Positions 6,356-56,221 of a stretch of DNA of 64,000 nt are shown here, piece by piece. Position 1 is the first letter of the stretch, and each line of letters starts with the position of its first letter. The notes beneath the pieces were generated by a model. The model was not told the DNA's origin and ran no database searches. It saw only the letters and a list, made by a program, of their open reading frames with translations. The stretch spans positions 6,901 to 70,900 of the forward strand of contig JAKQOW010000131.1 in assembly GCA_029565065.1 (NCBI GenBank). Reading direction: 5' to 3'. A program made the position numbers and the translations under genes. The DNA comes from Acidobacteriota bacterium (GTDB lineage Bacteria; Acidobacteriota; JAAYUB01).

Positions 6356-6401
6356 GCCGCCCGTTCCGATCTGCTGAGAAAGACAAAGTCATTATAGCAA
6401 A

Positions 6402-6430
6402 CGGACCACCTGTGACAATCGATTTCCGAA
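6402..6430 (+). promoter_or_regulatory. Candidate sigma-70 promoter GTGACA-N17-TAGAAT upstream of the MFS gene
   Basis: A manual hexamer match with 17-nt spacing, about 100 nt upstream of the ATG at 6528, in a moderately AT-rich divergent intergenic region. Confidence 0.3.
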
Positions 6431-6527
6431 TTGCTAGAATACATTCCGCCCGTAAGCAGTGGTTTTTAGGGCAATCCGGATTTTCCCGCTCGAGCGGGAC
6501 GAAAAACGCGGGGTGTAGGCCACCGGC

Positions 6528-37786: not shown

Positions 37787-38313
37787 TGGACCGTCCGGCG
37801 GACCGCCTGCGCGCCCTGCTGGACGCGGCGCGCCGGGCAGACCGGAAAGTGGTTGTGTTGGGAATTGGGAACGAGCTCCTGGGCGACGACGCCGTCGGCG
37901 ATCGCGTCGCCCGGGAGCTCGCGCCGTTTAACGACCACCGTTTTGAGGCTATCCCCGCCGGCAACGCACCCGAGAACGGCGCCTACATGGTCAGTCGGGC
38001 CGCCCCCGATGTGCTGATCATCATCGACGCGGCCGGGCCGGCCGGCGGAGCAGGGGAAGGCTCCGACAGCGCCGCGCCGTGGGATTTCTATCCTGCCGAT
38101 TCACTCGACACGTTCTGCCATTCCACCCATTCGGTGCCCCTGAGCATGCTCGTGAGCGTCTGGCGGCAGGAGCGGCCGCATCTCGATGTGCGGTTCATTG
38201 GCATCGCCATCCGCGAGACTTCGTTCCTGGCGCCGCTGTCCTCGTCGGTGGACGCCATCCGCGCCGAGATCGTGGGAGTGTTCCGGTCGGCGGTGGGGGA
38301 TGGTAAACAGTGA
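37786..38313 (+). CDS. hycI: Hydrogenase maturation endopeptidase (HycI/HybD family)
   Basis: The motif VVLGIGNELLGDDAVG is present with a downstream conserved His (HSTHS). Its ATG overlaps the NuoI-like stop. It is the last gene of the hydrogenase operon. Confidence 0.85.
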   Translation: MDRPADRLRALLDAARRADRKVVVLGIGNELLGDDAVGDRVARELAPFNDHRFEAIPAGNAPENGAYMVSRAAPDVLIIIDAAGPAGGAGEGSDSAAPWDFYPADSLDTFCHSTHSVPLSMLVSVWRQERPHLDVRFIGIAIRETSFLAPLSSSVDAIRAEIVGVFRSAVGDGKQ

Positions 38314-38575
38314 ACGGTGAACGGTGAACAGTGAAGAGATAGGAGATAGGGGATAGGAGATTGGAGTGTCGAGTATAGGTGGGTTCGGGATTCGTAATCG
38401 TAATATGTAATCGTGATCGTAATCGAGGCTCAACCCTCGACCCTCAACCCTCAACCCTCGACCCTCAACCCTCAACCCTCGACCCTCAACCCTCAACCCT
38501 CGACCCTCGACCCTCGACCCTCAACCCTCGACCCTCAACCCTCAACCCTCAACCCTCAACCTCCACCCCCAATCC
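38305..38575. repeat. Heptanucleotide-periodic microsatellite tract of about 38 units, in successive blocks: (AACRGTG)x4, (AGGAGAT)x4, a CGTAAT/CGTGAT hexamer block, then about 19 copies of (R)ACCCTC
   Basis: Direct reading gives aacagtg aacggtg aacggtg aacagtg aagagat aggagat aggggat aggagat ... gtaatcgtgatcgtaatcg aggctc (aaccctc/gaccctc)x~19. It is intergenic between the hycI stop and the convergent NSS operon. Confidence 0.85.
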
Positions 38576-43930: not shown

Positions 43931-45637
43931 GTGCATCACCCGGAGGCCAAACCCCAAGGAGGTGCGACCGTGCGCATGTCGGAAATGTTGGCCCGGCCGG
44001 CCAAGGAGGCGCCCAAGGGAGCCACCCTGGCGTCGCACCGTCTGCTGGTCCAAGGCGGCTTTGTGCGCGAGACGGCGCCCGGGCTGTTCGCCGCACTGCC
44101 CCTGGGGCGGCAGGTGGCGGCACGGGCCGAAGCACTTGCCCGGGCGGCCGGGGCGGAACGCGGTCTGGTGGAGCTGGAGCTGCCGGCGTTGCAGGATGCG
44201 TCGGGCTCGGCGCCGGATCACGGGGGCTTCATCCTGAGAGACCGCCGGGGAGCCGAGCTGCGCCTGGGGGGAAATCCCGCGGCAGCCCTGCTCCGGCTCG
44301 CGGCTCGGGAAATCAATTCGTACAAACAGCTCCCCCGCCGCTTCAGCCAGATCGGCGTCCGGTTCCGGGACGGCTACCGCGCCCGGTCCGGCCTGTTTGA
44401 GGCGCGGGAGAGCCGCGAGTTTCGGGCTTGGGGGCTGGCGCTGGAACCGAACCACCTGGACGAGGTGACCCTTGCCTATCGATCCATCGTGGCGGACGTG
44501 GCGGTCGCCGCCGGCGTGGACGGCCGCTGGATCGATGACGGAACGGGGACGGCCGTCTGGGTCGTCAGTCTGGCTGAGGGTCCGGAGCGCATCCTGAGCT
44601 GTCCGGCTTGCGGCTACGCCGCGCGGGCCGAGACTGCCGAATCCCGGCTGTCGCACCCACCGCAGGACGCCGCGTGGCGCCCCATGGAAATGGTCTGCGG
44701 CCCGGGGCTGATCCAGCCGGCGCCGTTGGCCGAGTTTCTGGGCATCCCGGTCTGGCTGACGACCAAATTACTCCTGTTCCTGGCCGACGGCCGGCCGGTG
44801 GCGGTGATGGTGCGGGGCGACTGCGATGTGAGCGAGACGAAGGTCCGGCGCCGTCTGGGGGGCGGCCGGCTGGAATTGGCCCCTCCGGAGACGGTCCAGG
44901 CGCTCACCGGCGCCGAGGTGGGCTACGCCGGCCCCATCGGCCTAGCGGCCGACGTGCAGATCCTGGCGGACGCGCAGACCCGGGATCGTGTCAACTTCGA
45001 GTGCGGCGCCAATCGCACCGACCATCACCTCATCTGCGTCAATTTTGATCGCGACCTGCCCCGGCCGGAATTCGGCGACTATGCCGCCGCGGCGGCCGGG
45101 CACGGGTGCCCGCGCTGCGACGCGGGCCGGCTCGCCGACGGCGTCGCGGCGGTGATCGCCCGGGTGACGGGTTCGGGCGCGGCGCCGGCGGATCCGGACG
45201 GGCCGACGTGCCTGGATCAGGAGGGGAGATCCCGGTCCATCGGATGGGTTCAGCTGTCCCTGGATCTCACCGCGCTTGTCGCCGCCGCCGTGGAGCAACA
45301 TCACACTGCCGCCGGCATCGTCTGGCCCCGCGCTTTGGCACCGGCCGCGGTGCACCTGGTGGCACTCAACCTGGAGGACGTCGAGGTGGCGTATGCCGCG
45401 GCGGCGCTGTACACCGCGCTGCGGGCGGACGGAATCCCGGTGCTGTTCGACGACCGCGACGCCCGCGCCGGCGACAAGTTCGCCGGTGCCGACATGCTCG
45501 GCCTGCCGGTGGTCCTGACCCTGAGCCGGCGCACCCACCAGGCGGGCGAACTGGAGCTGCGGATCCGCGGCGGCGAGCGCGAGACGCTCCCCCGCGAGGA
45601 GGCGCTGGGCCGGCTGCGGATGCACCTCGGCGCCTGA
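43931..45637 (+). CDS. Prolyl-tRNA synthetase-like paralog: intact INS editing and anticodon-binding domains, degenerate class II motifs 1-3
   Basis: It aligns along its full length to bacterial ProRS (...SHRLLVQGGFVRE..., INSYKQLP, FRD..., the INS region MVRGDCDVSETK...GANRTDHHLICVNFDRDL, and a C-terminal ...IVWPRALAPAAVHLVAL...LFDDRDARAGDKFA...). But LGPTHEE becomes LGGNPAA, FRDEvRPRfGvmRsREFlMKDAYSF becomes FRDGYRARSGLFEARESREFRAWGLALE, and GCYGIGVSR is lost. The start may be GTG/ATG about 40 nt downstream, after GGAGG. Confidence 0.75.
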   Translation: MHHPEAKPQGGATVRMSEMLARPAKEAPKGATLASHRLLVQGGFVRETAPGLFAALPLGRQVAARAEALARAAGAERGLVELELPALQDASGSAPDHGGFILRDRRGAELRLGGNPAAALLRLAAREINSYKQLPRRFSQIGVRFRDGYRARSGLFEARESREFRAWGLALEPNHLDEVTLAYRSIVADVAVAAGVDGRWIDDGTGTAVWVVSLAEGPERILSCPACGYAARAETAESRLSHPPQDAAWRPMEMVCGPGLIQPAPLAEFLGIPVWLTTKLLLFLADGRPVAVMVRGDCDVSETKVRRRLGGGRLELAPPETVQALTGAEVGYAGPIGLAADVQILADAQTRDRVNFECGANRTDHHLICVNFDRDLPRPEFGDYAAAAAGHGCPRCDAGRLADGVAAVIARVTGSGAAPADPDGPTCLDQEGRSRSIGWVQLSLDLTALVAAAVEQHHTAAGIVWPRALAPAAVHLVALNLEDVEVAYAAAALYTALRADGIPVLFDDRDARAGDKFAGADMLGLPVVLTLSRRTHQAGELELRIRGGERETLPREEALGRLRMHLGA

Positions 45638-45747
45638 GAGGCGCTGGACGGCCGGCAAAGAAAATCACCAAAGGGGCTGGTGATTTTGAAACGTCTGACG
45701 GATAATTGACTCTATTTCTTGGACCGAATCTATCGGGAGGAACATCC

Positions 45748-46506
45748 ATGCGTGGAAAGTTGATCGTCGTCACCTGCCTGATCGCCGCTCTCACCCTGAC
45801 GCTGGCCGCTGCCGGTTTCTGGGAGAAGAAACCGTATACCCAGTGGTCGGAGAAGGATGCGCGCAAGATGCTGGAGAAGTCACCGTGGTGTTACGAGTTC
45901 AACTGGGGGCGGCAGAGCAATATCGGTTCGGACGTGACCGGACCGTCGATCGGTTCAGTGCCCAGCCCGACCAGCACCCCGGCCGATGACAGCCGGGGCG
46001 TCACCGACGCCGAACGGGAATTCATCACCATCGTGCGGGTCATGCTGTTCTCCTCCCGGCCCATCCGCCAGGCGTACGCCACCCTCATCGCCAAGGGTGA
46101 CAAGGCCCGGCTGGAAAAACTGAAGGATTTCGCCGAACGCGATTTCGGCGACGAGATCGTCATCGCCTGGGTGATCGATTCCAAGCCGAAGGGCGCGACC
46201 TCGGTCTTCGACCTGGACCGCCAGCTCCGCGCCCTGGCGGTGGGCGAATTGGCCAATGATACCTTCATCGCCAGCAGCAGCGGCAAAAAGGTGTACATCA
46301 AGGATTTCATCCCGCCGACGAGCGACGGCACCGGCGCCAAGTTCGTCTTTCCGCGGACGATGCCCGACGGCACGCCGTTCCTCACCGCCGCCGACAAGAG
46401 TTTCCGCTTCCAGACGCGGAAGTTCAAGATGAAGGATGACGCGGTTGCGGTGGACGCCACCTTCAAGGTGGAGGACCTCCAACTGGCCGGTCAGCTCGAG
46501 TATTAA
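45748..46506 (+). CDS. Secreted protein of unknown function, paralog A of a tandem pair
   Basis: It has a GGGAGG RBS and a signal peptide. Conserved blocks YWEKKPYTQWSEKDARKML, TIVRVMLFSSRP, KDFAERDFGDEIVIAWV and GTGAKFVFPR are present. It is about 65-70% identical to the next gene. Confidence 0.7.
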   Translation: MRGKLIVVTCLIAALTLTLAAAGFWEKKPYTQWSEKDARKMLEKSPWCYEFNWGRQSNIGSDVTGPSIGSVPSPTSTPADDSRGVTDAEREFITIVRVMLFSSRPIRQAYATLIAKGDKARLEKLKDFAERDFGDEIVIAWVIDSKPKGATSVFDLDRQLRALAVGELANDTFIASSSGKKVYIKDFIPPTSDGTGAKFVFPRTMPDGTPFLTAADKSFRFQTRKFKMKDDAVAVDATFKVEDLQLAGQLEY

Positions 46507-46731
46507 GCCTTCGGTACGCATCCGCAGATCGCATTCGAGCATTCAACGCCATCGGTGTCGGGCGAGTGTCCCGGCGCCGGTGGCGCTTTGGTCTGCCGAC
46601 CGGCTACGACGCCTTCGGCGACAACCTGAGGTTTCTTGAATCCGCGCGTCACCGGGAGACGTATAATGCATCTTGACCATTGGTGGGAACCGCGCCGAGC
46701 GGTTCAATTGCCCAAAGGAGGAACAAGCGTC

Positions 46732-47499
46732 ATGCGCCTGAGACTATTTATGGGGCTGATCGGACTCATCGCTCTGGCCGCCGCAACGCTGTCGGCCGCG
46801 GATTACTGGGAGAAGAAACCGTACGCGAAGTGGTCCGAGAAAGAAGCCCGTAAGATGATCATGCAATCGCCGTGGTGCGTCGAGTTCAGCTGGAGCAGCA
46901 CCGGCTCGAGCGGCGACAGCCTCACCCAGGATGCGACGGCCTATGAGCCGTCTTCGCCGGTGGGAACGGCGACGAGCCGGGGCGCCACCGACACCGTGGG
47001 CAGCGAGCGGGAAATTCTCACCATCGTCCGGGTCATGCTGTTCTCGTCGCGGCCCGTCCGCTCGGCGGTCGCCGTGCTCGCCGCGAAGGGGGATGCCGGC
47101 CGGATCGAGCGGCTGAAGGATTTCGCCGAGCGCGACTTCGGCGACGAGATCGTTGTCGCCTGGGTGCTGGATTCCAAGCCCAAGGGCGCCACGTCGGTCG
47201 CCGACCTGGACCGCCAGCTCCGCGCCCTGGCGGTGGGCGAGCTGGCCAACGAGACCTTCCTGGCCACCAGCAGCGGGAAAAAGGTGTTCCTCAAGGACTA
47301 CATCCCGCCCACGCCGGACGGCACGGGTGCCAAGTTTGTCTTCCCGCGCTTCCTGCCGGACGGCACGCCCCTGATCACCGCCGCGGACAAGACTCTGCGC
47401 TTCCAGACGAAAAAGTTCCAGATGCGCGATGACGACATCTCCGTGGATGCCACGTTCAAACTGGACAAGATGATCTTCAACGGCCAGTTGGACTACTAA
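46732..47499 (+). CDS. Secreted protein of unknown function, paralog B of a tandem pair
   Basis: It has an AAAGGAGG RBS and a signal peptide. The blocks are colinear with paralog A (YWEKKPYAKWSEKEARKMI ... GTGAKFVFPR...). Confidence 0.7.
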   Translation: MRLRLFMGLIGLIALAAATLSAADYWEKKPYAKWSEKEARKMIMQSPWCVEFSWSSTGSSGDSLTQDATAYEPSSPVGTATSRGATDTVGSEREILTIVRVMLFSSRPVRSAVAVLAAKGDAGRIERLKDFAERDFGDEIVVAWVLDSKPKGATSVADLDRQLRALAVGELANETFLATSSGKKVFLKDYIPPTPDGTGAKFVFPRFLPDGTPLITAADKTLRFQTKKFQMRDDDISVDATFKLDKMIFNGQLDY

Positions 47500-47526: not shown

Positions 47527-47568
47527 TCGGAAATCCGGCGGCCGGCTGAGACCCTACAGCCGGCCGCC
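47527..47568 (+). terminator. Rho-independent terminator
   Basis: The inverted repeat CCGGCGGCCGGCTG-loop-CAGCCGGCCGCCGG is followed by TTGTTTG. It lies 28 nt after the paralog B stop, between convergent genes. Confidence 0.55.
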
Positions 47569-47584
47569 GGTTGTTTGTGGACCG

Positions 47585-49303
47585 CTACATTTTCTCCAAC
47601 AGCCGTTCCACTTCTTTGAACACGGCGGAACCCGCCTGTTCCAATTCCGGCCTCAGGACCGCTCGGGCGTATTGAACGGCGCGCGCCGCGTCGTCGGACA
47701 GCACACCAAGCAGGTAGGCGATTTTTCCTTTCAGCCCGTGGATCGTGTTGAAGACGACCTCGCTGTGGAAGAGCAGGGGACGCGCGCACAGGATGTCCAC
47801 CTCGTTGGACCGCAGGAGCATGTCCGCCCGCAGGCGCTCCACCGCGTCGGCCGGGGGATTTCGCTGGGCGATGACGGGTTGCAGCACCACCCGGACGGCC
47901 TGCAGCACCTCCTGAGTCCGGCGGAGATGCCGCAGGCATTCCGCCCGGTGCAGGCTGAATTCCCGCTCGTCGGCCGGCGGCGGCTCCTTGGCTTCCTGCT
48001 GACCGTCCAGCTTGAAGATGGCGCGCAGGTGCTGGGTGGTCAGCGGACGATCACCGAACATGGCGTGCAGGCTGGACAGCACCATCAGGAGTTCACGCGC
48101 GTTGCCCGGCCAGGCATAGCCCCGCAGCTCGTTCAGGATGTCGTCCGGCAGCGCGCCCGTCGGATTGCGGGTGATGCGCTGCCAGAAATGCTGGGCCAGT
48201 CGGGGGACGTCGTCGAGATGACGCCGCAGAGCGGGCGTGCGGATGAGCATGCCCCGGAGGCGGTAGTACAGGTCTTCCCGGAACTCGCCGCGCTGGACCA
48301 TGCCGAACAGGTCGCGGTTCGTCGCCGCCAGCACGCGGACATCCAACTGGACGGGCTCCCGGGCGCCCAGGGGCAGAATGGCCTTGTCGTCCAGCACCCG
48401 CAGGATCTTGGCCTGTTGCGGCAGGGGGAGTTCGGCGACCTCGTCCAGAAAGATGGTGCCGTGATTGGCCGCCTCCCAGAGGCCGATCCGGTCAGCCTGG
48501 GCGTCGGTGAACGCGCCCTTCTTGTACCCGAAAAACTCGGACTCCAGCAAATTCAGCGGAATGGCGCCGCAGTTGACGGGCACGAAGCGGCTTTTTCCGC
48601 GCCGGCTCAGGCTGTGAATCTCCTGGGCGACGATGTTCTTGCCGGTGCCGGTGTCGCCGACGATGAGCACGGCGCATTCGGCCCGGGCCGCCTGGATGAT
48701 GAGCTGCCGGACCAGCTCGGCCTCCATGGATTGCCCGACGAATTTGGAGTCGAGCACCCTGGCCTCGGCATGGTAGCCGATGAGTTGGATCAGGGATCCG
48801 TCGCCGGCCGTCTCGGACTCTGTCTCCGGAGCGGTCGGAGCCGGAACGGCGGCTCCCGCGGCGCCCGCCGCGGGGGCGGCGGTCTCGCCGCCCGCTGGGT
48901 CGGGCCTGGCCATCGTCCACAAGCTGTCGAACAAATCCGGCGGGATGCCCACGATGGCGCGCAAGTGCGTGCTGCCGGAGCCGGTGTGTTTAAGGAAATC
49001 GCAGACGCTGCGCTGCAACTGACCGGTTGAACGGTAAACGCCTTCGACAAGCGGAATCTTGCCGGCCGGGCCGCCCGTGAGGTAGGTCTTCAATCCCTTA
49101 TGGACGTTCTTGATGCCCCGATCCACCACCAGATCGACCATGGTGCGGAAACCGGCCAGATCCGCGTTGTCGACCAGGTAGATCGCAGCCTGGGGCGGTT
49201 TGGGGACTTTTTCCAAATCCTGTGTCCGGTTACGTGGCAGCGCGCACCGGAATGGGCCTTCAGGCGGTTTGCCCGTCAGGTACTTCAACGCACGAGCAGT
49301 CAT
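47585..49303 (-). CDS. Sigma-54-dependent transcriptional activator (bEBP AAA+ core) with unassigned N-terminal domain and no recognisable C-terminal Fis-type HTH
   Basis: The central domain has Walker A GDTGTGKN, GAFTGA-type KGAFTDA, Walker B IFLDEV, the arginine fingers and sensor II. The 150-aa N-terminus and 170-aa C-terminus are not recognisable by eye. It is divergent from the sigma-54 promoter operon. Confidence 0.85.
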   Translation of the reverse strand: MTARALKYLTGKPPEGPFRCALPRNRTQDLEKVPKPPQAAIYLVDNADLAGFRTMVDLVVDRGIKNVHKGLKTYLTGGPAGKIPLVEGVYRSTGQLQRSVCDFLKHTGSGSTHLRAIVGIPPDLFDSLWTMARPDPAGGETAAPAAGAAGAAVPAPTAPETESETAGDGSLIQLIGYHAEARVLDSKFVGQSMEAELVRQLIIQAARAECAVLIVGDTGTGKNIVAQEIHSLSRRGKSRFVPVNCGAIPLNLLESEFFGYKKGAFTDAQADRIGLWEAANHGTIFLDEVAELPLPQQAKILRVLDDKAILPLGAREPVQLDVRVLAATNRDLFGMVQRGEFREDLYYRLRGMLIRTPALRRHLDDVPRLAQHFWQRITRNPTGALPDDILNELRGYAWPGNARELLMVLSSLHAMFGDRPLTTQHLRAIFKLDGQQEAKEPPPADEREFSLHRAECLRHLRRTQEVLQAVRVVLQPVIAQRNPPADAVERLRADMLLRSNEVDILCARPLLFHSEVVFNTIHGLKGKIAYLLGVLSDDAARAVQYARAVLRPELEQAGSAVFKEVERLLEKM

Positions 49304-49590
49304 GGGGCACCTCGTTGAGTTGATGATCGATTGTACCTGCGATGTTTGTCCAACTCAACATAATATTGCAAATTAATCGGTGAGTTGACTAACGGTTGAG
49401 TAGTATGGAAATCATAATGCAAATATTATAAATAACATGCGTTTGTAATCGGAAGAGAAGCCAATGAATTTTGAGTAAAAAATTGAGTTATGGGTCTGTT
49501 TCTCAACCATTCGGGCCAATTGAATGCCTAAATATCAATCTGTTCGGTTGAGAACTTTGTAACAAAAACAAAAATAAGAATTTAGTAATT

Positions 49591-49606
49591 TGGCATGCTC
49601 TGTGCA
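49591..49606 (+). promoter_or_regulatory. Sigma-54 (-24/-12) promoter TGGCATG-N4-GTGCAT
   Basis: GG and GC are spaced exactly as in the consensus TGGCACG-N4-TTGCA. It lies about 65 nt upstream of the ATG at 49670, in a 365-nt AT-rich intergenic region carrying multiple GAGTTGA/TCAACTC inverted repeats (candidate UAS). Confidence 0.55.
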
Positions 49607-49669
49607 TTCCCCAGGTTCAAAGCCGGCGATAAATGAAACAGGAACCGGCCGAACGCGAGGTGCACGAAC

Positions 49670-51916
49670 ATGGCCAAACTCAATCTCAATGGCGTGGAAT
49701 TCTGGAGCGGCAGCACAGTCCATGACACCGTGCGCCAGTTGGCCGGTCTCTGCGAGCAGGTGGTCCATGCGCCCATCCCCATCGCGCCGGGCGGCGACAG
49801 TTTCACGATGCCGTGCGATCCGGCGATGAAACGCCGGGGCATCCTGGGCATTGAGGGAAGATACAAGCCCGATGACGACATCGTGGAAATCGTCATTCTT
49901 CTGGTCGAGGGGCCGGCCCAGGCCCGAAGCGGCGTGTCGGCGGTGTTTCAGAAACTGGCCGCGCTGTCGGATCGGGTGCACTGTCTGGAGCCCGAGATCG
50001 ACAACGACCGCGTCGCACTGCGGATGCTGCTCAGCGTCAAGGCCTCGATGTTGTCGTTGAGTCGGCAGGAGAAGTTCATTGACGAGTTGACGAAGCTGGA
50101 CGACCTGGCCCGCTTGCTCCAGGAGGAGATCCCGTCTGACAAGACGGACCAGGAGCTGGAGGCGGCCTACCGGAAGGTGCGCGAGGTCGTCGAGCCGGTG
50201 CGGCCGCTGGCACAGGGCGAGGCGGATCTGGAACCGGCTCACGTGGCGTGGGCCCGCGAGATTCTGGATTACCTGGGTGGCGCCGCGCCCGTCGCCGTCG
50301 CGGCGCCGTCGCTGGCGCTCACGGATTACGCGCAGGCGTTGCTGGCCCGGGTGGCGATGGGCACGGGGGGAAGTCTCGGGCGGCTGGCGGTGCCTTCCGT
50401 CAACACGCAGGGTCTGGTGGAGTTGGTGCGCCGCGCGCCGGGCTTCGTGGTGGTGCCGGTGGAGAGCATCAGTCTCGGCGCCAGCCGCTACGAACTGGGG
50501 AATGAGGTCCGCGCCCTGCTGGCGACCCTGGTGGCAGGGGGGAGGTCCCCGATCTTTACGGGGACCTATGAGGAGCTCCAGGGGGTGTTCCACGGGGGGC
50601 AGGGCGCGGCCTCGGACCCGTTGATGCCGGTGGTGCGGCACATCCCGAATGTGGCGCTGCCGGCGCTGGCCGAGGTGGCGGTCCAGGTGGCCAGCCGCCC
50701 GCACGGCGGCCTGCCGCCGGCCCGACGGAAGGAGCTGACCCGATGGGTGTTGGCGGCCCTCGACGGGCGGAGCGACTCCCAGCAGCAGCGGATCCTGCCG
50801 CTGGTGGCGCGCAAGGTGGTCACCGATTATTTCGCCGGGCGCTACCTCGGCCCCGATGCAGCCAACGGGTTCGCCGACCGCTCCGCCGCATTGAGTGAGA
50901 CGTTTGCCGGTCTATGCGTCCGCCCGCGGGCGATGCGGACGGCGGAAGTCCAGGCGGCGTGGGTGCGGACGCTTGCGTCGCCGGAGCTGCTGGCCACCTT
51001 CCGCGAACACCTGCTGGCTCAGGACCGGGCGCTCGAGGCGCTCAGCCGGCGGCTGACCATGGAAGTGCTGACGCGGCCGCTGCATCAGCCCCTCCGCTAT
51101 TGCGCCCAGGGAACGCCCGGCACGGGCAAGTCGGAGAGCGCCCAGCTCCTGGCCCAGGTGCTGGACGTGCCGTTCGTGGTCATCGACGCGGCGAGCATGT
51201 CCGACGCCTACACCGTCACCAGCCAGCTGCTGGGGTCCAGCCGGGGGATCGTGAACTCCTACCAACCCGGCCGGCTGGAACAGGTGGCCAAGCACCACCG
51301 TGGCGCCGTGGTGGAGATCTGCGACATCGACCATGCGCCGCCGCCGGTGCAGTCGGCCCTGGCGGCGCTCTGCTTCCAGGTGCTGGAAAACGGCGAGGCG
51401 CAGAGCTCGGCCGGCGGGATGTTCTCCTGCGCCAACCTCATCTTCGCCTTCACGATGAACCTGCCGGGGGGCATGGATGAGGCGGTCCGCCGCGACGGCA
51501 TCGGCTACAACAACGCGCCCACGGCCCGGACGGTGAAGAACAAGATCGTGAACGAGATCAAGGGCATGCTCAGCGGCGCCTTCCTGAGCCGGATCGGCAC
51601 GCCCATCCTGTTCGAACCGCTCGACGGCGATGCGCTGGCGGCGATCGTGGAGCGCGCCGTGGCCGAGGCGGTGCGCGCCGCCGCCGAGCGCCTGGGCCGA
51701 CCGGTACCGGCGGTGGCCGTCGGTGCGGGGGTGGGCCGGGCGGTGCTGGCCACGCTCGAGGCCAGCGTCATCGCCTTCGGCGCCCGCGCCATCCTGGAGC
51801 ACGGCCGCGCCCTGGCGGCGGAAGCGGTGCTCCGCTGGGAAGGCGGGGCCGCCGCGGACCAGCCGGTGCGCGTCGAGGCGCGCGGCACCGGCGAGCTGGA
51901 CATTCTGACCGATTGA
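49670..51916 (+). CDS. Diverged ClpA/ClpB-family AAA+ protein: degenerate D1-like region plus C-terminal AAA_2 (ClpB D2-like) module with atypical Walker B
   Basis: The C-terminus has Walker A GTPGTGKSE. The segment ...LGSSRGIVNSYQPGRLEQVAKHHRGAVVEICDIDHAPPPVQSALAALCFQVLENGEAQSSAGGMFSCANLIFAFTMN is colinear with ClpB D2 (...[68 protein letters not shown]), but DE becomes CD/DI. A central region resembles ClpB D1 without Walker A. Confidence 0.8.
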   Translation: MAKLNLNGVEFWSGSTVHDTVRQLAGLCEQVVHAPIPIAPGGDSFTMPCDPAMKRRGILGIEGRYKPDDDIVEIVILLVEGPAQARSGVSAVFQKLAALSDRVHCLEPEIDNDRVALRMLLSVKASMLSLSRQEKFIDELTKLDDLARLLQEEIPSDKTDQELEAAYRKVREVVEPVRPLAQGEADLEPAHVAWAREILDYLGGAAPVAVAAPSLALTDYAQALLARVAMGTGGSLGRLAVPSVNTQGLVELVRRAPGFVVVPVESISLGASRYELGNEVRALLATLVAGGRSPIFTGTYEELQGVFHGGQGAASDPLMPVVRHIPNVALPALAEVAVQVASRPHGGLPPARRKELTRWVLAALDGRSDSQQQRILPLVARKVVTDYFAGRYLGPDAANGFADRSAALSETFAGLCVRPRAMRTAEVQAAWVRTLASPELLATFREHLLAQDRALEALSRRLTMEVLTRPLHQPLRYCAQGTPGTGKSESAQLLAQVLDVPFVVIDAASMSDAYTVTSQLLGSSRGIVNSYQPGRLEQVAKHHRGAVVEICDIDHAPPPVQSALAALCFQVLENGEAQSSAGGMFSCANLIFAFTMNLPGGMDEAVRRDGIGYNNAPTARTVKNKIVNEIKGMLSGAFLSRIGTPILFEPLDGDALAAIVERAVAEAVRAAAERLGRPVPAVAVGAGVGRAVLATLEASVIAFGARAILEHGRALAAEAVLRWEGGAAADQPVRVEARGTGELDILTD

Positions 51917-51925
51917 GGAGGAATC

Positions 51926-52939
51926 ATGGCTGGCAACGTTTACAGCGTCTGCGATCCGGAGCAGTACCGGAAGGCGGGGCCCACCGATCTGGTGGAGCTG
52001 CTGCCGCCGCCGGGGGGCAATCCGCTGTACCTGCAGAAATGGCTGGTGGAGACTCTCGTGTTCGCCATCGTCCACCATGAATTCGTGCACCTGTCGGGGC
52101 CCACCGGGAGCGCCAAGAGCTCGCTCCTGGAGGCGCTCTACACAGTTCCGGAGAACTTCCGGGGGGTGTGCGACGGCCTGGGTTGCGCGTCGCGGCCCCT
52201 GAAGCTGTTCCCCATCGAGATGGCGACCTTCGAGGCGCCGGGCGAGCTGTACCAGCGCCGGGCGCTGAAAGACGGCACGACCTACGACGAGCCGAGCCGG
52301 CTGGTGGCCGCTCTGGCGGCAGCCGCCCGGTGCGCCGGTTCGGCGTACCCGCTGATCTGGCTGCGCGAGATCGGACGAGTGCACTCGTCCAGCGTCCAGG
52401 GCGGCTTGCTCAATCTGATGACGCGGGCCGAGATCGTGCTGCCGGACGGGACGCACTTTCCGGGGCAGGGCATCGCCTGGGTGGCCGACAGCAACTATCA
52501 GGCCGAGCAGAGCGCCACCCATACCCTGGTCACCCTGGACGACGCGCTGAAGCGGCGGTTCACCATCAATCTGACGCTGGACTACCTCACGGCCGAGCAG
52601 GAGGTCCAGGTGCTGGAGCACATTTTCAACGGCAACGGCGGCGCCCCGGTGCCCGCCGAGCTCATCGTGAAGGTGGTGCAGCTGGGCAACGTCGTCCGGC
52701 GCCACCGCAGCGAGGGGAACCTGCAGACGCTGACGCCGCCCACCATCTACGGCTACATGGCCTTCCTCCGGACGGCCCGGGCGCTGCCGCATCTGAGCTT
52801 GCAGCAGGTGGCGCTGGCCACGCTGCTCGGCAACGCCGGCTCCGAGGACCGCAAGCACGTGGCCGGTGTGTTCAATGAGGTGTTCGGCCTGCAGACCGAG
52901 GAGGAGGAAGACCCGACGATGGTGGGGAACCTGTTCTGA
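51926..52939 (+). CDS. MoxR/CbbQ/NorQ-like AAA+ ATPase (AAA_5) with variant Walker B
   Basis: Walker A is GPTGSAKSS. The sensor/Walker B region LIWLREIGRVHSSSVQGGLLNLMTRAEIVLPDG parallels MoxR's [27 protein letters not shown], but DE is replaced by RE. It is 337 aa. Confidence 0.8.
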   Translation: MAGNVYSVCDPEQYRKAGPTDLVELLPPPGGNPLYLQKWLVETLVFAIVHHEFVHLSGPTGSAKSSLLEALYTVPENFRGVCDGLGCASRPLKLFPIEMATFEAPGELYQRRALKDGTTYDEPSRLVAALAAAARCAGSAYPLIWLREIGRVHSSSVQGGLLNLMTRAEIVLPDGTHFPGQGIAWVADSNYQAEQSATHTLVTLDDALKRRFTINLTLDYLTAEQEVQVLEHIFNGNGGAPVPAELIVKVVQLGNVVRRHRSEGNLQTLTPPTIYGYMAFLRTARALPHLSLQQVALATLLGNAGSEDRKHVAGVFNEVFGLQTEEEEDPTMVGNLF

Positions 52940-52972
52940 TTGTCCGGGAGTGCACGGGATTGGGGAGGATCC

Positions 52973-55093
52973 ATGAAACCGAAACGAAAGACGGCCAGGA
53001 CGGCGACGGAACGGACGGGTTATTCGTTCGCGCTTCGCTCGCGCCGGAACAAGTCCGATTGGGCCGGCATCGGCATCGCTGACGCGTTCAAGCAGAACAT
53101 CGACTACTTCCACCGGTCCCAGGCCCAGCGGCTCTTCTACCGCCAGCTCAAGAAGACGGTCCGCGCGGTGGCCAAGCTGGACGGCACCGAGGCCCCGCAC
53201 CTGTTGCAACCGCGGGTCAAACCGCAGCTCTCGCCCTGCTACTCCAGCTATCCGGCGGGGCTGGCGGTGTACGCGGCCATCGGCCTGACGGCGTTTCTGG
53301 AATTCAAGGCCCGGATCTCGGACAGCCGGTTCCTGTCGTATCTGAACACCCAGCTCGGCGTGCAGATGGCGGACAGCGACGTCCGGGCCGATCCCGAGCT
53401 GGCCGAGCTCACTGCCCACAGCGTGGCCAACTGGATGCACAGCCGGCTGCTCATCGAGGACCTGGCCCGGCGGGCGGCGCTGTCCGCCATCGAGGTGTAC
53501 CGCCTGTTCGCCGCGGCCCAGGAAGACCTCCGTTTTGCCACCGTGGACGACATCATCCGCGCGGTGATCCTCTACGGCGACGTCCTGTGCGAGCCGTGGC
53601 ATCTGAACCTGCATCCGCTGACCGCCCGGATCCTCCGGGATCTCATTGTGGCCAGCGCGCCGTTCTACGAACGCCTGCCCGAGGTGCCGGACCGGGACTT
53701 GCTGGAGATGGGCGCCGCCTGGTCCTGGCGGCTGATGGCCGTTCTGCTGCGCTACCTGCCGCCGCCCGGCCAGCCAGAGGAGAAACAGCCCAAGGAGGCG
53801 CGGAAAGGGCGGAATCGGCTGATGGAACTGCTGGGCGCCTCCATGCCCGCCGACGAAAGCATCCGCGGCGACAGCGAGTTGGCCCCGTTCGACGGTCCCG
53901 TGCCGCCGGTCGTCAACCGGCCGGAGAATCCCCTCGACTGGCTCATGAACCAGTTGTCGGGCGGGACGGGACGCGACCGCATCCGCGACGCCGATAAGCT
54001 GGCGACGGTCGAGGATGGGATCTATAAAACCCTGGAGGAATTTCAAGCGGCGCTGGGCGGCGCGGCGGGCCAGTCCGGCAACTGGGAGGACATGCGGTCC
54101 GATCTGCTGGAGAACTCGCTTCGCGCGATCCCGTTCGCGGCCGGACCCATCGAGGGGAACCCGGCCGACGGGCATGAGGTCAAGGTGTCGATGTACGGCG
54201 ACGAGCGCGCGATGGGGGAGCTGTTCGACCGCCCCGTGGCGCCGTCGGACGACGTGGCGGCATGTCACAGCCTGGTGGAGGATGCGGCGCCCCTGACCGC
54301 AACCCTGCGCCAGAACCTCTATCCGAACATCGAGCAGCGGCCGGAGATCCAGCGCCTGCGCTGCAGCGGCGGGCTGGACGGCGCGCGCCTGCCGCTGGCG
54401 GAGTTTTCCGAGACGGTCTTCCGGCGCTACCGGATCCGCGAGGTGGCCGATCCGCGGGGATCGCCGGTGCTGGTGATCGCCTGCGACGGCTCCGGCTCAC
54501 TCAACGAGAAGCAGATGCGGATGGTCAAGCTGTTGTCGGCTGCCTATCTGCAGTCCACCGCCCGGAGCAGTATCCAGGTGCTCGCCGCCCTCTACCACAG
54601 CGGCGACATCCGGCCGGGCGTTTCGGGGCCGCTGGTCCAGTGGATGTACCATCCGCGCAAGTCCATCGCCCGGAGCCGCCAGGACGCCGTGCGGAGCGTC
54701 GTCACGTTGCCCGACACCGGTACCGGCGTGCAGAGCGATGCGCTGTCCATCGCGTTCATCATGGACGAGGCTCGCCGGATTGCACGCGGCCACATGATCT
54801 ACCTGGTGCTCATCACCGACACCAGCTGGAACCGCAGTTTCAACCGGTCCGAAACCGGCGCCGAGGAGGTTCGCGGCTATTTCGAGGACCTCTATGAACG
54901 CTTCCCGGGCCAGGTGCACACGACTCTGGTGGCGTTGGGCGTGGCGGCGCCGACGGGCTTCGAGGACCTGCTCAACGCGGTCATCGGAGTCACCCACGAG
55001 GAATTGTCCGACAGCGCCGCGGTGGCCGAGAAAGTCGGCGTATACGTCGCCCGCTGCATTCGCGAACGCACCCGGCTCATCGCCCGGGCCTGA
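52973..55093 (+). CDS. Large VWA-domain protein (CbbO/NorD-like partner of the MoxR-type ATPase); N-terminal about 480 aa unassigned
   Basis: The C-terminal VWA domain has the MIDAS motif VLVIACDGSGS and downstream T/D ligand positions. It has a GGAGGA RBS before the ATG at 52973. It lies directly downstream of the AAA_5 ATPase, as in CbbQO/NorQD pairs. Confidence 0.75.
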   Translation: MKPKRKTARTATERTGYSFALRSRRNKSDWAGIGIADAFKQNIDYFHRSQAQRLFYRQLKKTVRAVAKLDGTEAPHLLQPRVKPQLSPCYSSYPAGLAVYAAIGLTAFLEFKARISDSRFLSYLNTQLGVQMADSDVRADPELAELTAHSVANWMHSRLLIEDLARRAALSAIEVYRLFAAAQEDLRFATVDDIIRAVILYGDVLCEPWHLNLHPLTARILRDLIVASAPFYERLPEVPDRDLLEMGAAWSWRLMAVLLRYLPPPGQPEEKQPKEARKGRNRLMELLGASMPADESIRGDSELAPFDGPVPPVVNRPENPLDWLMNQLSGGTGRDRIRDADKLATVEDGIYKTLEEFQAALGGAAGQSGNWEDMRSDLLENSLRAIPFAAGPIEGNPADGHEVKVSMYGDERAMGELFDRPVAPSDDVAACHSLVEDAAPLTATLRQNLYPNIEQRPEIQRLRCSGGLDGARLPLAEFSETVFRRYRIREVADPRGSPVLVIACDGSGSLNEKQMRMVKLLSAAYLQSTARSSIQVLAALYHSGDIRPGVSGPLVQWMYHPRKSIARSRQDAVRSVVTLPDTGTGVQSDALSIAFIMDEARRIARGHMIYLVLITDTSWNRSFNRSETGAEEVRGYFEDLYERFPGQVHTTLVALGVAAPTGFEDLLNAVIGVTHEELSDSAAVAEKVGVYVARCIRERTRLIARA

Positions 55094-55105
55094 CAGGAGG
55101 AAGCC

Positions 55106-56221
55106 ATGGGCAACCGCACCACGACCACCGACACGCTGACGCTGCCGAAACCGGCAGGCGGCTGGTCATCGACGTTCGACTATGGCACCGGCGACTGGTG
55201 GAGCCGCCGGCCGGAGGTGGATCGCCGCAAGGCATTGGCGCCCGTTCTGAATCAGCTCCAGCGGCTGGACGCCCAGCGCCTCCGGCTGGAGCGGGAAGGG
55301 GGGACGGTGAAGGATCTGGCCGTCCTGACCCGCATCCTGAGCGAGCCGCTGCGCGTCGAGGGCCACTACGGCCCCGCGACCTGCTCATTGCGGGATCCGC
55401 GCGCGCTGCGCACGGCGCTGCTGGATGTCGACTACGATCTGCACCACGATGTGCGGCAGCTGCCCGACCTGCTGCCGGTGTACTACGTGAGCCGGACGCG
55501 CCGGGACTACTGGGGCGAGTACAGCCTGGTGGTGGAGGATTTTCACCTGAGCCCCGGCTACCCGCTTCAGGACGAGCGGTTCGTGCGCCTGATGGACGTC
55601 GGCCACGAGGTATACTTTCTGCGGCTGGCGCACCTGCGGGACGCCGCACGGGCCATGCTGGGGGGCGCCGGCTCCGGCGACGGGGCGGTGGACGCCCTGT
55701 TGTACGACCTGGGGCGGCACGTTTTCCAGGCCGCCTGGCATGAGGACCAGCGGCTGGGCATTCTGGTGGCTGATCATTTCCGCCTGACGGCGTTCCGGCA
55801 GGCCATCGAGCTGCTTTACCTGTGCCTGAGCGGCGAGCTGTGCGAACTGCGGCACGCCATCACGCCGGATATGCTGCGGTTTTTCGTCGAGGCCTACGAG
55901 CAGCCCGCGATCCGCCGCTTCCTGGAACGGCTGCACGACCTGGATGGCGCCATGATCACCGATCTGCCCCGGCAGGGCCGGGTGCTCTACAAGCGACTGG
56001 GACACGCGTTCAGCCGGTGCCTCGGCACCGAGGTGCTGTGGGGGTTCGGCCGGCGGATGATCCCGCTCTGGAAGGTGGTCTATGGCAACCTGACCCGGTT
56101 GGAGGCGGTCGGCCGGCAGTTGCGGGCCGATCCGCGGGTGATCACCGCGTGCGGCCGGCTGGAGAAAGAAGCCGAAGCAGTCATTGATGAACTGGCGGGA
56201 GGCGGAACGTCAGCGCGGTGA
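55106..56221 (+). CDS. Hypothetical protein, last gene of the sigma-54 AAA+/VWA operon
   Basis: The 371-aa ORF has an AGGAGG-like RBS (CAGGAGGAAGCC ATG) and coding-like GC3. No family is recognisable. Confidence 0.6.
   Translation: MGNRTTTTDTLTLPKPAGGWSSTFDYGTGDWWSRRPEVDRRKALAPVLNQLQRLDAQRLRLEREGGTVKDLAVLTRILSEPLRVEGHYGPATCSLRDPRALRTALLDVDYDLHHDVRQLPDLLPVYYVSRTRRDYWGEYSLVVEDFHLSPGYPLQDERFVRLMDVGHEVYFLRLAHLRDAARAMLGGAGSGDGAVDALLYDLGRHVFQAAWHEDQRLGILVADHFRLTAFRQAIELLYLCLSGELCELRHAITPDMLRFFVEAYEQPAIRRFLERLHDLDGAMITDLPRQGRVLYKRLGHAFSRCLGTEVLWGFGRRMIPLWKVVYGNLTRLEAVGRQLRADPRVITACGRLEKEAEAVIDELAGGGTSAR

What the first reader, a model, noticed from the sequence alone, without database searches (positions are those of the whole stretch)
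47585..49669. bEBP with novel N-terminal domain and no recognisable HTH, next to an enhancer-like repeat-rich AT island
The activator has a textbook sigma-54 interaction AAA+ core (GAFTGA-type KGAFTDA, Walker A/B). Its 150-aa N-terminus and 170-aa C-terminus match nothing I recognise, and the C-terminus lacks the usual Fis-type HTH. Yet the adjacent intergenic region has at least three GAGTTGA...TCAACTC inverted-repeat pairs, as if for a DNA-binding dimer. Either the C-terminal domain is a new DNA-binding fold or the protein acts from solution, as FlgR or CtcC do.
Basis: partly seen in the sequence, partly recalled or inferred. Interest (0 to 1): 0.55.

Follow-up and report, generated by a model that had tools for sequence, protein, structure and literature searches.

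The report
Sigma-54 activator with two unknown domains
This gene encodes a sigma-54 transcription activator from a widespread but undescribed family that has two unclassified domains instead of the usual sensor and DNA-binding parts, still appears to bind a conserved DNA motif, and sits next to immune-like gene clusters in several bacterial phyla.

Summary
ORF 47585-49303 (-) encodes a 572-aa sigma-54 activator with an intact AAA+ core (Walker A/B, GAFTDA loop). Profile searches find no HTH_8/Fis domain in it or in 40 relatives.

- **N-terminal domain (residues 1-133):** a confidently modelled alpha/beta domain with no Pfam or PDB match.
- **C-terminal domain (residues 439-572):** a confidently modelled bundle of four long helices with conserved H-x3-C-x2-H plus Cys. 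It has no helix-turn-helix.
- **Family:** N-AAA-C is a real family (385 clusters at 50% identity) found in Acidobacteriota, Desulfobacterota, Planctomycetota, Lentisphaerota and Gemmatimonadota.

The AT-rich intergenic region holds a sigma-54 promoter (49591-49606) facing a conserved four-gene AAA+/MoxR-like operon. It also holds about eight copies of one motif, TTGAGTTGA. That motif is the most enriched word beside family genes in 20 non-redundant loci (24 versus 3 expected), and it lies upstream of sigma-54 promoters there.

So the protein most likely binds enhancers rather than acting from solution. Which new domain reads the DNA is unresolved. Family members sit next to TIR, NACHT/STAND, ThiF/Pup-ligase, MoxR and RyR genes, which suggests control of conflict or immune systems. 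I rate it a new variant of a known kind, of moderate to high interest.

The parts
47585..49303 (-). Gene for the 572-aa sigma-54 activator (bEBP), stop codon included
   Evidence: ORF list. Pfam PF00158 E 4e-61. More than 120 full-length homologues at 40-45% identity and 99% coverage.
48905..49303 (-). N-terminal domain, residues 1-133. It is an alpha/beta domain: a beta-hairpin followed by four beta-alpha units. Conserved residues include D61-R62-G63-x-K65, K69, G88, G119 and W129.
   Evidence: AlphaFold2 model: pLDDT 87, pTM 0.84. No PDB fold match: best Foldseek E 0.059, TM 0.28. No Pfam or PDB sequence match. Conservation. Net positive charge in 95% of 59 members.
48764..48904 (-). Low-complexity Pro/Ala/Gly/Glu-rich linker, residues 134-180. 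Its length and sequence vary across the family.
   Evidence: Alignment A1 columns 150-215 are gapped and unconserved. Coordinates.
47990..48739 (-). Sigma-54 interaction AAA+ core and lid, residues 189-438. Walker A is at 48638-48658, the GAFTDA loop at 48500-48517 and Walker B at 48440-48451.
   Evidence: Pfam PF00158 and PF25601. Matches solved FlrA/NtrC/FleQ/NtrC1/PspF cores at E 1e-43 to 6e-59 over residues 184-433 only. Motif coordinates.
47588..47989 (-). C-terminal family-specific domain, residues 439-572. It is predicted as four long helices (444-478, 485-506, 515-537, 539-571). H452-x3-C456-x2-H459, C506 and an Arg cluster (R453, R458, R461, R462) are conserved.
   Evidence: AlphaFold2 model: pLDDT 90. 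Foldseek finds only generic four-helix bundles, E>=0.097. No HTH_8 or any consistent Pfam hit in 41 members. The profile finds 385 clusters, always at the C-terminus of bEBPs of about 540-600 aa or in fragments. Conservation.
49304..49669 (.). AT-rich divergent control region between the activator gene and the target operon
   Evidence: GC 0.39 overall and 0.31-0.36 in 200-nt windows. No Rfam family.
49314..49323 (+). Motif copy 1, GTTGAGTTGA. It is an exact TTGAGTTGA and lies 10-20 nt upstream of the activator's start codon.
   Evidence: Invariant in the 96% and 88% orthologous loci.
49350..49359 (-). Motif copy 2 (CCAACTCAAC on the + strand). It overlaps the -35 hexamer of the activator's own sigma-70-like promoter.
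   Evidence: Invariant in orthologues.
49380..49402 (+). Motif copies 3 and 4, GTGAGTTGA and GGTTGAGTA
   Evidence: AGTTGAyTAAmGGTTGA is conserved in orthologues.
49471..49511 (.). Motif copies 5-7: TTGAGTA, TTGAGTT and CTCAACC (reverse orientation)
   Evidence: Partly conserved in orthologues.
49546..49554 (+). Motif copy 8, GGTTGAGAA, about 40 nt upstream of the sigma-54 promoter
   Evidence: GGTTGAGAA is invariant in orthologues.
49330..49358 (-). Sigma-70-like promoter for the activator gene (TTGAGT, 17-nt spacer, TACAAT). Its -35 hexamer lies inside motif copy 2.
   Evidence: Consensus scan: 3 promoter-like sites against 0.4 expected. The same layout, GTTGAGTTGA followed by TGATATGAG, occurs upstream of homologues in L016, L019, L004 and L012.
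49591..49606 (+). Sigma-54 promoter TGGCATG-N4-GTGCA (-24/-12 elements), 64 nt upstream of the ATG at 49670
   Evidence: It is the only match to TGGCAYG-N4-KTGCW in 64 kb, against 0.11 expected. It is conserved at the same place in L003, L008, L005, L011, L013, L017, L018 and L025.
49670..56221 (+). Target operon of four genes. The 748-aa protein carries a ClpA/B-type AAA_2 module (49670-51916). The 337-aa protein is a MoxR-like AAA+ (51926-52939). The 717-aa protein has a DGSGS (DxSxS) motif but no Pfam hit (52940-55093). The 371-aa protein is unknown (55106-56221).
   Evidence: Pfam and NCBIfam. The cassette is conserved divergently from the activator in L005, L011, L013, L017, L018 and L025 at 45-65% identity.
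47535..47570 (.). GC-rich 14-bp hairpin between the convergent ends of the activator gene and the upstream 287-aa gene. It looks like a terminator.

Best explanation
The gene encodes a working, DNA-site-dependent sigma-54 activator of an undescribed family. Its architecture is a new N-domain, a flexible linker, the AAA+ core and a new C-terminal four-helix domain.

Proposed mechanism:
1. Subunits bind several copies of a 9-bp site, consensus TTGAGTTGA, scattered in both orientations over about 250 bp of AT-rich DNA.
2. They assemble into the AAA+ ring.
3. The ring reaches sigma-54 RNA polymerase, held closed at TGGCATG-N4-GTGCA (49591-49606).
4. ATP hydrolysis and the GAFTDA loop open the promoter of the divergent four-gene AAA+/MoxR-like operon.
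5. One site overlaps the -35 of the activator's own sigma-70-type promoter, so the protein probably represses itself, as PspF does.

Domain roles. The N-domain is a Rossmann-like alpha/beta module with Gly-rich and basic loops. It is most likely the signal input. One relative carries a Ser/Thr kinase in its place. The C-terminal bundle occupies the usual DNA-binding position and is the more likely DNA reader. I put that at about 0.45, against 0.3 for the N-domain. Its conserved H-x3-C-x2-H plus Cys may hold a metal.

The family as a whole appears to switch on immune-like or conflict gene clusters.

- **Shown here:** the domain content, the absence of an HTH, the promoter, the motif enrichment and its conservation, and the gene neighbourhoods.
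- **Inferred:** DNA binding by this protein, which domain does it, autoregulation, the metal site, the signal, and the biological role.

The confidence of 0.7 applies to the core claim, an enhancer-dependent sigma-54 activator of a new architecture that recognises TTGAGTTGA-type sites. It does not apply to the assignment of the DNA-reading domain.
For: **Intact activator core.**
- Pfam and structure-sequence matches cover the core, and all catalytic motifs are invariant across 59 members.

**Sigma-54 promoter.**
- It is unique in the window.
- It keeps its position in nine related loci from three phyla.

**Motif.**
- TTGAG occurs 7 times against 0.66 expected in the spacer, and 0 of 2000 shuffles reach that.
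- In an unbiased 7-mer count over the flanks of family genes in 20 non-redundant loci, the top three words are TTGAGTT (14/20), GTTGAGT (13/20) and GAGTTGA (12/20). Their background rate is 0.155-0.165 per kb.
- TTGAGTTGA with at most one mismatch occurs 24 times in the flanks against 3.05 expected (Poisson 4e-14).
- Copies lie upstream of sigma-54 promoters that are not beside the activator's start, in L007, L021, L026 and L006.
- Among 96% and 88% orthologues, the motif copies and the promoter are the invariant islands of the spacer.
- The activator is the only gene shared by all these loci.

**Autoregulation layout.**

**Domain roles.**
- The C-domain is always attached to the AAA+ core.
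- Of 212 long members, 211 carry both N and C domains. The one exception, P0138, replaces the N-domain with a protein kinase and keeps the C-domain.
Against: - No experiment shows binding, and no tool here can show it.
- A bundle of four long helices is not a known sequence-specific DNA-binding fold. Its nearest Foldseek neighbours are sensor or generic bundles such as chemoreceptor ligand domains and cytochrome b562.
- The conserved His/Cys cluster would suit a redox or metal sensor.
- The N-domain is net basic in 95% of members, while the C-domain averages +1.1.
- The kinase-fused variant sits 1.4 kb from a canonical paralogue. It could borrow DNA binding in a mixed ring, so it does not settle domain roles.
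- Part of the motif doubles as a -35-like TTGA element. That could inflate its enrichment just upstream of the genes.
- Some loci (L006, L010, L024, L026, L027) have no copy within one mismatch.
- rpoN is not in the window, so sigma-54 in this organism is assumed.
Confidence: 0.7

Rival explanations
1. The layout is inverted. The basic N-terminal alpha/beta domain, tethered by the 47-aa flexible linker, is the DNA reader and binds single 9-bp sites as a monomer. The C-terminal four-helix bundle, with its His/Cys cluster, is a metal or redox sensor, or a partner-binding domain, that gates ring assembly.
For: - The N-domain is net positive in 95% of members (mean +3.8), with conserved K7, R62, K65, K69, K82 and R98.
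- Long disordered linkers suit tethered DNA-binding modules.
- The sites are non-palindromic, in both orientations and with irregular spacing.
- H452, C456, H459 and C506 are each at least 90% conserved. By helix register they lie at one end of the bundle.
- The nearest fold neighbours of the C-domain include chemoreceptor sensor bundles.
Against: - The N-domain topology, a hairpin plus four beta-alpha units with Gly-rich loops, is typical of small-molecule-binding Rossmann-like modules rather than DNA readers.
- In P0138 the N-domain is replaced by a kinase while the C-domain is retained. That is the usual pattern for swappable input domains.
- Most characterised bEBPs carry their DNA-binding domain at the C-terminus (established knowledge of the family).
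Confidence: 0.3
2. The protein has no DNA-binding domain and activates from solution, as FlgR, CtcC and FleT do. On this reading the repeats are promoter elements (-35-like TTGA words), bending sequences, or sites for another regulator.
For: - No HTH or any known DNA-binding domain is detected.
- The motif contains TTGA, and one copy serves as a -35 hexamer.
- Across the whole 64-kb window, near-matches are not in excess (8 against 5 expected).
Against: - Known solution-acting bEBPs end soon after the AAA+ lid. This protein carries a further 134-aa domain, conserved in 385 clusters.
- The motif tracks the family across phyla, including at sigma-54 promoters away from the activator's own promoter and in both orientations.
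- No other gene is shared by all the loci that could supply a binder.
Confidence: 0.12
3. The C-terminal bundle is a HEPN-type RNase or another effector domain, so the protein is more than a transcription factor. The idea comes from the R453-x5-H459 spacing and the conflict-system setting.
For: - R453 and H459 are at least 90% conserved, with Rx5H spacing, in a four-helix domain.
- The neighbourhoods are rich in conflict-system genes.
Against: - No HEPN structure appears among the top 50 Foldseek PDB matches, although many have been solved.
- No HEPN Pfam family hits any of 41 members.
- The motif sits in the first helix and lacks the usual polar residue after the Arg. This point rests on my recollection of the HEPN literature and was not tested here.
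Confidence: 0.04

Closest known systems
PspF and the divergent pspF / pspABCDE control region (E. coli)
   Same: - The AAA+ core is homologous (E 2e-43 to solved PspF).
- The activator gene is transcribed divergently from its sigma-54 target.
- Enhancer sites overlap the activator's own sigma-70 promoter, which implies negative autoregulation.
   Different: - PspF has no N-terminal domain and a C-terminal HTH. This protein has a new 133-aa N-domain and a four-helix C-domain without an HTH.
- PspF is controlled by PspA binding. No pspA-like gene is present here.
NtrC / NtrC1 / FleQ-type bEBPs (receiver or other input domain, AAA+, Fis-type HTH_8)
   Same: - The overall scheme is three parts: input, AAA+ and C-terminal module.
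- It has a GAFTGA-type loop.
- Upstream sites are used with a -24/-12 promoter.
   Different: - There is no receiver, GAF, PAS, V4R or FleQ input domain, and no HTH_8.
- The sites are single 9-mers, not dyad-symmetric pairs.
RtcR (CARF, AAA+, HTH activator of the rtcBA RNA-repair operon)
   Same: - It is the best PADLOC profile: RtcR_PspF2, E 7e-83.
- It is also a bEBP whose Rossmann-like N-domain is thought to sense a nucleic-acid-derived signal and which controls a stress or defence-linked operon.
   Different: - The match covers only residues 152-435.
- No CARF and no HTH were detected.
- The target genes are unrelated to rtcBA.
FlgR (Helicobacter), CtcC (Chlamydia) and FleT (Rhodobacter): bEBPs without a DNA-binding domain
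   Same: No recognisable HTH.
   Different: - As I recall, those proteins stop after the AAA+ lid and need no enhancer. This one keeps a conserved 134-aa C-domain.
- It is accompanied by a conserved upstream motif.
NTP-dependent conflict systems of 'multicellular' bacteria (Kaur et al. 2020, PMC7159879): MoxR-vWA, STAND, TIR and related systems
   Same: Family members neighbour bpMoxR-like AAA+ proteins, NACHT/nSTAND1 with DUF4062 and WD40, TIR, ThiF/Pup-ligase/JAB and SLATT genes. They occur in the same kinds of organisms.
   Different: That paper mentions NtrC-like ATPases only in passing, as an analogy. I found no description of a dedicated sigma-54 activator family for these systems.

Membership tests
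Bacterial enhancer-binding proteins (sigma-54 activators, Pfam PF00158) | AAA+ module with Walker A, Walker B, arginine finger and sensor II | tested here: met
   PF00158 E 4e-61 and AAA_lid_14. GDTGTGK, FLDE, ATNRDL and WPGNARE are present and invariant across 59 members.
Bacterial enhancer-binding proteins (sigma-54 activators, Pfam PF00158) | GAFTGA sigma-54-contacting loop | tested here: met
   GAFTDA at residues 263-268. The family consensus is KGxFTDA, with F-T kept. This is a variant at the fifth position.
Bacterial enhancer-binding proteins (sigma-54 activators, Pfam PF00158) | A -24/-12 sigma-54 promoter at the regulated gene | tested here: met
   TGGCATGCTCTGTGCA at 49591-49606 is the only match in 64 kb, against 0.11 expected. 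It is positionally conserved in related loci.
Bacterial enhancer-binding proteins (sigma-54 activators, Pfam PF00158) | C-terminal Fis-type HTH (HTH_8) DNA-binding domain (typical of the family, not universal) | tested here: not met
   No HTH_8 at E<=0.1 in the full protein, nor at E<=5 in 41 C-terminal domains. The model is four long helices.
Bacterial enhancer-binding proteins (sigma-54 activators, Pfam PF00158) | ATP- and sigma-54-dependent open-complex formation | not testable with these tools
   This needs in vitro transcription. rpoN is not in the window.
DNA-binding-domain-less bEBPs (FlgR / CtcC / FleT type) | Protein ends shortly after the AAA+ lid | tested here: not met
   134 further residues form a confidently modelled domain that is conserved in 385 clusters.
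DNA-binding-domain-less bEBPs (FlgR / CtcC / FleT type) | No conserved upstream activator sites at target promoters | tested here: not met
   TTGAGTTGA is enriched 8-fold beside family genes and conserved as footprint islands.
RtcR (CARF-AAA+-HTH) | N-terminal CARF domain | tested here: not met
RtcR (CARF-AAA+-HTH) | Adjacent rtcB/rtcA target genes | tested here: not met
   The neighbours are AAA_2, MoxR-like and unknown proteins.
Zinc-binding helical bundles of the anti-sigma (ZAS, H-x3-C-x2-C) kind | Helix-borne H-x3-C-x2-C/H motif plus a fourth ligand brought close by the fold, with bound zinc | tested here: inconclusive
   H452-x3-C456-x2-H459 and C506 are each at least 90% conserved. Helix register places them at the same end of the bundle. 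I had no coordinates, no metal analysis and no fold match to ZAS domains. The resemblance comes from my memory of the ZAS motif.
HEPN | Four-helix domain with a catalytic Rx4-6H motif and a fold match to known HEPN structures | tested here: not met
   Rx5H spacing exists. There is no HEPN among the Foldseek matches and no HEPN Pfam hit.

The most novel reading that the evidence does not exclude
This is the founding example of a dedicated sigma-54 'immune switch' family. A previously unseen Rossmann-like N-domain senses an infection- or damage-derived signal. A previously unseen, possibly zinc-stabilised, four-helix C-domain is a new sequence-specific DNA-binding fold that reads TTGAGTTGA. Together they turn on diverse conflict systems (MoxR/vWA-like, TIR, STAND, ubiquitin-like) across at least five phyla.
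Probability: 0.3. Interest if true: 0.8.

Novelty: new variant of a known kind. Interest (0 to 1): 0.6.

Why it matters
Sigma-54 activators are usually described as input domain, AAA+ core and Fis-type HTH. The few exceptions without an HTH are thought to work without enhancers. This family of 385 clusters at 50% identity breaks that pattern. It has no HTH, yet a conserved upstream motif travels with it.

So either a four-helix bundle or a small alpha/beta domain is a new DNA-reading module. That can be tested directly with two isolated domains and one 366-bp fragment.

The family's steady association with TIR, NACHT/STAND, ThiF/Pup-ligase, MoxR-like, RyR and SLATT genes suggests something further. 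It suggests that tightly closed, ATP-gated sigma-54 promoters keep costly or toxic immune-like systems silent until a signal arrives. I found no description of this regulatory link in the searchable literature.

The link would also give a handle, in the form of a motif plus a promoter, for predicting the regulon of uncultured Acidobacteriota and related groups.

Tried and rejected
- The search for related loci with the 41-sequence C-domain alignment failed for lack of a conserved stretch. An 8-sequence subset worked.
- Model coordinates are not exposed. The proposed His/Cys cluster could not be measured and rests on helix register only.

**Searches that gave nothing useful**
- The BFVD search of the C-domain gave only generic helical proteins.
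- Word-indexed homologue searches with the isolated domains returned only fragments.
- The one apparent stand-alone N-domain protein (P0130) is the front half of a split activator gene in the same kind of locus.
- No family member was found in viral contigs.
- No Rfam family lies in the spacer.
- The literature searches found no description of the family.

**Ideas considered and set aside**
- HEPN and CARF readings of the two domains are not supported.
- An IHF site between the enhancer sites and the promoter: TATCAATCTGTTC at about 49533 misses the consensus at its last base and is not conserved in L003. I do not claim it.
- A second sigma-54-like match at 45360 lies inside a coding region and is probably chance.
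- The kinase-fused relative cannot be used to assign the DNA-binding domain, because a canonical paralogue lies in the same locus.
- Covariation between motif variants and protein residues: I judged this too confounded by phylogeny with 20 loci and did not attempt it.
Full report
**1. What is at the coordinates**

The minus-strand ORF 47585-49303 encodes 572 aa.
- Pfam finds the sigma-54 interaction domain at residues 189-354 (E 4e-61) and the AAA+ lid at 360-438. It finds nothing else of note and no HTH_8.
- NCBIfam matches many named activators (PrdR, RtcR, PrpR, NifA, NorR, NtrC and others). All fall far below their cut-offs, and all match only residues ~181-470.
- Solved bEBP structures (FlrA, NtrC, FleQ, NtrC1, PspF) align to residues 184-433 only.
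- Walker A (216-222), GAFTDA (263-268), Walker B (285-288) and the arginine-finger and sensor II regions are present. They are invariant in 59 aligned relatives.
- It is the only GAFTGA-type protein in the window, and rpoN is not in the window.

**2. The two terminal domains**

A homologue search returned more than 120 full-length relatives at 40-45% identity and 99% coverage. None has an HTH_8 annotation. The alignment shows both ends conserved, separated from the core by a variable Pro/Ala-rich linker (134-180) and a short linker (439-443).

AlphaFold2 models built on domain alignments are confident.
- **N-domain:** pLDDT 87. It is a beta-hairpin followed by four beta-alpha units.
- **C-domain:** pLDDT 90. 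It is four long helices at 444-478, 485-506, 515-537 and 539-571, joined by a four-residue helical turn (509-512).

Foldseek against the PDB gives nothing significant for the N-domain (best E 0.059, TM 0.28). For the C-domain it gives only generic four-helix bundles, such as chemoreceptor ligand domains, talin and cytochrome b562 fusions (E>=0.097). BFVD adds nothing.

Scanning every member of both domain alignments against Pfam at E<=5 gives no recurring family and no HTH_8. PDB sequence profiles give nothing.

A profile of the C-domain, run against 1.84 billion representatives, finds 385 clusters at E<=0.001. The domain is always at the C-terminus of proteins of about 540-600 aa, or in fragments. 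Of 212 collected proteins of at least 480 aa, 211 carry both domains. The exception, P0138, has a Ser/Thr protein kinase in place of the N-domain and keeps the C-domain.

Conserved features are as follows:
- In the N-domain: D61-R62-G63-x-K65, K69, K82, G88, R98, G119 and W129.
- In the C-domain: H452-x3-C456-x2-H459, C506 and the arginines R453, R458, R461 and R462.

The N-domain is net positive in 95% of members (mean +3.8). The C-domain averages +1.1.

**3. The intergenic region**

Region 49304-49669 is 39% GC, falling to 31-36% in 200-nt windows, against 60-75% around it.

It contains the window's only match to TGGCAYG-N4-KTGCW, at 49591-49606. The match faces the ATG at 49670, and 0.11 matches are expected by chance.

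They come from about eight copies of one word. TTGAG/CTCAA occurs 7 times against 0.66 expected, with 0 of 2000 shuffles reaching that. Three TTGAGTTGA-like 9-mers lie within 75 bp.

A sigma-70-like promoter for the activator (TTGAGT, 17 nt, TACAAT) has its -35 inside one copy. No Rfam family matches.

**4. Comparative evidence that the motif is functional and belongs to this protein**

Related loci came from metagenome assemblies and from one genome per species. They span Acidobacteriota (including Blastocatellia, Chloracidobacterium and Thermoanaerobaculia), Desulfobacterota, Planctomycetota, Lentisphaerota and Gemmatimonadota.

*The operon and its promoter.* The divergent four-gene operon has the gene order 748-aa AAA_2 protein, 337-aa MoxR-like AAA+, 717-aa protein, 371-aa protein. 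It accompanies the activator in L005, L011, L013, L017, L018 and L025 at 45-65% identity. Each of those spacers holds a TGGCAC/T -24 element with a -12 TGC/TGG/TGT in the same place.

*Footprints.* Among 96% and 88% orthologues, the spacer has diverged except at the motif copies, the sigma-54 promoter and the two ribosome-binding regions.

*Unbiased word count.* I counted 7-mers in the 450-nt flanks of family genes in 20 non-redundant loci. The top words are TTGAGTT (14/20), GTTGAGT (13/20) and GAGTTGA (12/20), against a background of 0.155-0.165 per kb. TTGAGTTGA with at most one mismatch occurs 24 times in those flanks against 3.05 expected (Poisson 4e-14).

*Copies away from the activator's own promoter.* Copies also lie upstream of sigma-54 promoters elsewhere:
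- In L007 they lie downstream of the activator, before a TIR-TPR gene.
- In L021 they lie 3 kb away, before a Band_7 gene.
- In L026 they lie before a small membrane-protein gene.
- In L006 and L024 the pattern is CAACTC repeats followed by TGGCATGGCATTGGCA, before a RING/ThiF/Pup-ligase cluster.

In Blastocatellia loci the layout GTTGAGTTGA-N-TGATATGAG recurs just upstream of the activator gene. This matches the -35 overlap seen in the window.

The activator is the only gene common to all these loci. The simplest reading is that the family itself recognises TTGAGTTGA, activates nearby sigma-54 promoters, and represses its own promoter in the manner of PspF.

**5. Which domain reads the DNA is open**

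For the C-domain:
- It occupies the canonical position.
- It is never separated from the AAA+ core.
- It carries a conserved arginine cluster on helix 1.
- It is retained when the N-domain is swapped for a kinase.

For the N-domain:
- It is consistently basic.
- It hangs on a long flexible linker.
- The sites are non-palindromic singles with irregular spacing, which suits independent monomeric readers.
- The His/Cys cluster and bundle fold of the C-domain look more like a sensor.

Two points cut against reading too much from this. The N-domain's Rossmann-like topology and Gly-rich loops favour a small-molecule sensor. The kinase variant is not decisive, because a canonical paralogue lies 1.4 kb away.

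My estimates are about 0.45 for the C-domain, 0.3 for the N-domain and 0.12 for no binding at all.

**6. What the family controls**

Genes next to family members include:
- TIR and ThsB-like TIR proteins
- ThiF (E1-like), Pup-ligase and JAB proteins
- NACHT/nSTAND1 proteins with DUF4062 and WD40 or TPR arrays
- bpMoxR-like AAA+ proteins
- RyR-domain AAA+ and TrkA_N-RyR proteins
- SLATT, RelA/SpoT-TPR, a calcineurin-like phosphoesterase and Band_7
- an RpoD-like sigma factor in Blastocatellia

They are the gene classes described as NTP-dependent conflict systems (PMC7159879). That paper does not describe a sigma-54 activator for them. Four literature searches found none either.

The window's own target operon has no PADLOC system match beyond weak AAA+ hits. 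No family member occurs in viral contigs.

**7. Verdict**

This is a new variant of a known kind. It is a bona fide bEBP core in an undescribed, phylogenetically broad architecture, with its own conserved DNA motif and a likely role as a switch for immune-like systems.

The window most likely comes from an Acidobacteriota MAG. The closest match is 96-97% identical to JAGOHA010000015.1, and another is 88% identical to JAXGLX010000002.1.

Noticed in passing
window 38310-38570: An intergenic block of several different short tandem repeats. There are about four copies of GTGAACG/GTGAACA, then GATAGGA-like units, then TAATCG units, then about 19 copies of the heptamer CCCTCAA/CCCTCGA. A similar run of heptamer repeats (GTGAGAA, GTGAACG, CCGAGTG, CCAATAG) follows the sigma-54 promoter in the Gemmatimonadales locus L006 at 6400-6520.
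   Followed up: no
window 56320-58137 (-): A 605-aa TrkA_N plus RyR-domain protein lies next to the target operon. RyR-domain proteins, some fused to AAA+, recur beside family members in L005, L007, L012, L021 and L028. They may belong to the same regulated systems.
   Followed up: partly
window 45706-46506 and 46636-47499 (+): Two paralogous proteins of 266 and 287 aa have hydrophobic N-termini and no Pfam or NCBIfam hit. They lie convergent with the activator and are conserved only in the close relatives (L001-L003, L008, L009).
   Followed up: no
L030 333-2816 (protein P0138): A relative in which a Ser/Thr protein kinase domain, with a Cys-rich N-terminal segment, replaces the N-domain ahead of the same AAA+ core and C-domain. 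It lies in a locus with two TIR genes, a canonical family paralogue and a DUF4062-NACHT-TPR gene.
   Followed up: partly
L004 12655-14364, L016 8761-10491, L019 5666-7366: In Blastocatellia-type loci an RpoD-like sigma-70 family gene (565-576 aa) lies downstream of the activator (0.3-0.4 kb in L016 and L019, about 2 kb in L004). In L016 and L019 it is preceded by TTGACTTGA. This hints at a sigma-54 to sigma-70 regulatory cascade.
   Followed up: no
window 52940-55093 (+): The 717-aa operon protein has no Pfam hit. It contains VLVIACDGSGSLN, a DxSxS pattern like the metal-binding motif of vWA domains, next to the MoxR-like ATPase. This suggests a divergent MoxR-vWA pair.
   Followed up: partly
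window 43931-45637 (+): A 568-aa protein whose close homologue carries only tRNA_edit and HGTP_anticodon Pfam hits. It is ProRS-like, with no catalytic-core hit on record. It also contains a probably fortuitous sigma-54-like match at 45360.
   Followed up: no
L029 6001-7697: In one metagenome contig the activator is split into a 162-aa N-domain ORF and a 375-aa AAA+ ORF beside the same AAA_2 operon. This is probably a frameshift, a pseudogene or an assembly error rather than a stand-alone N-domain protein.
   Followed up: partly
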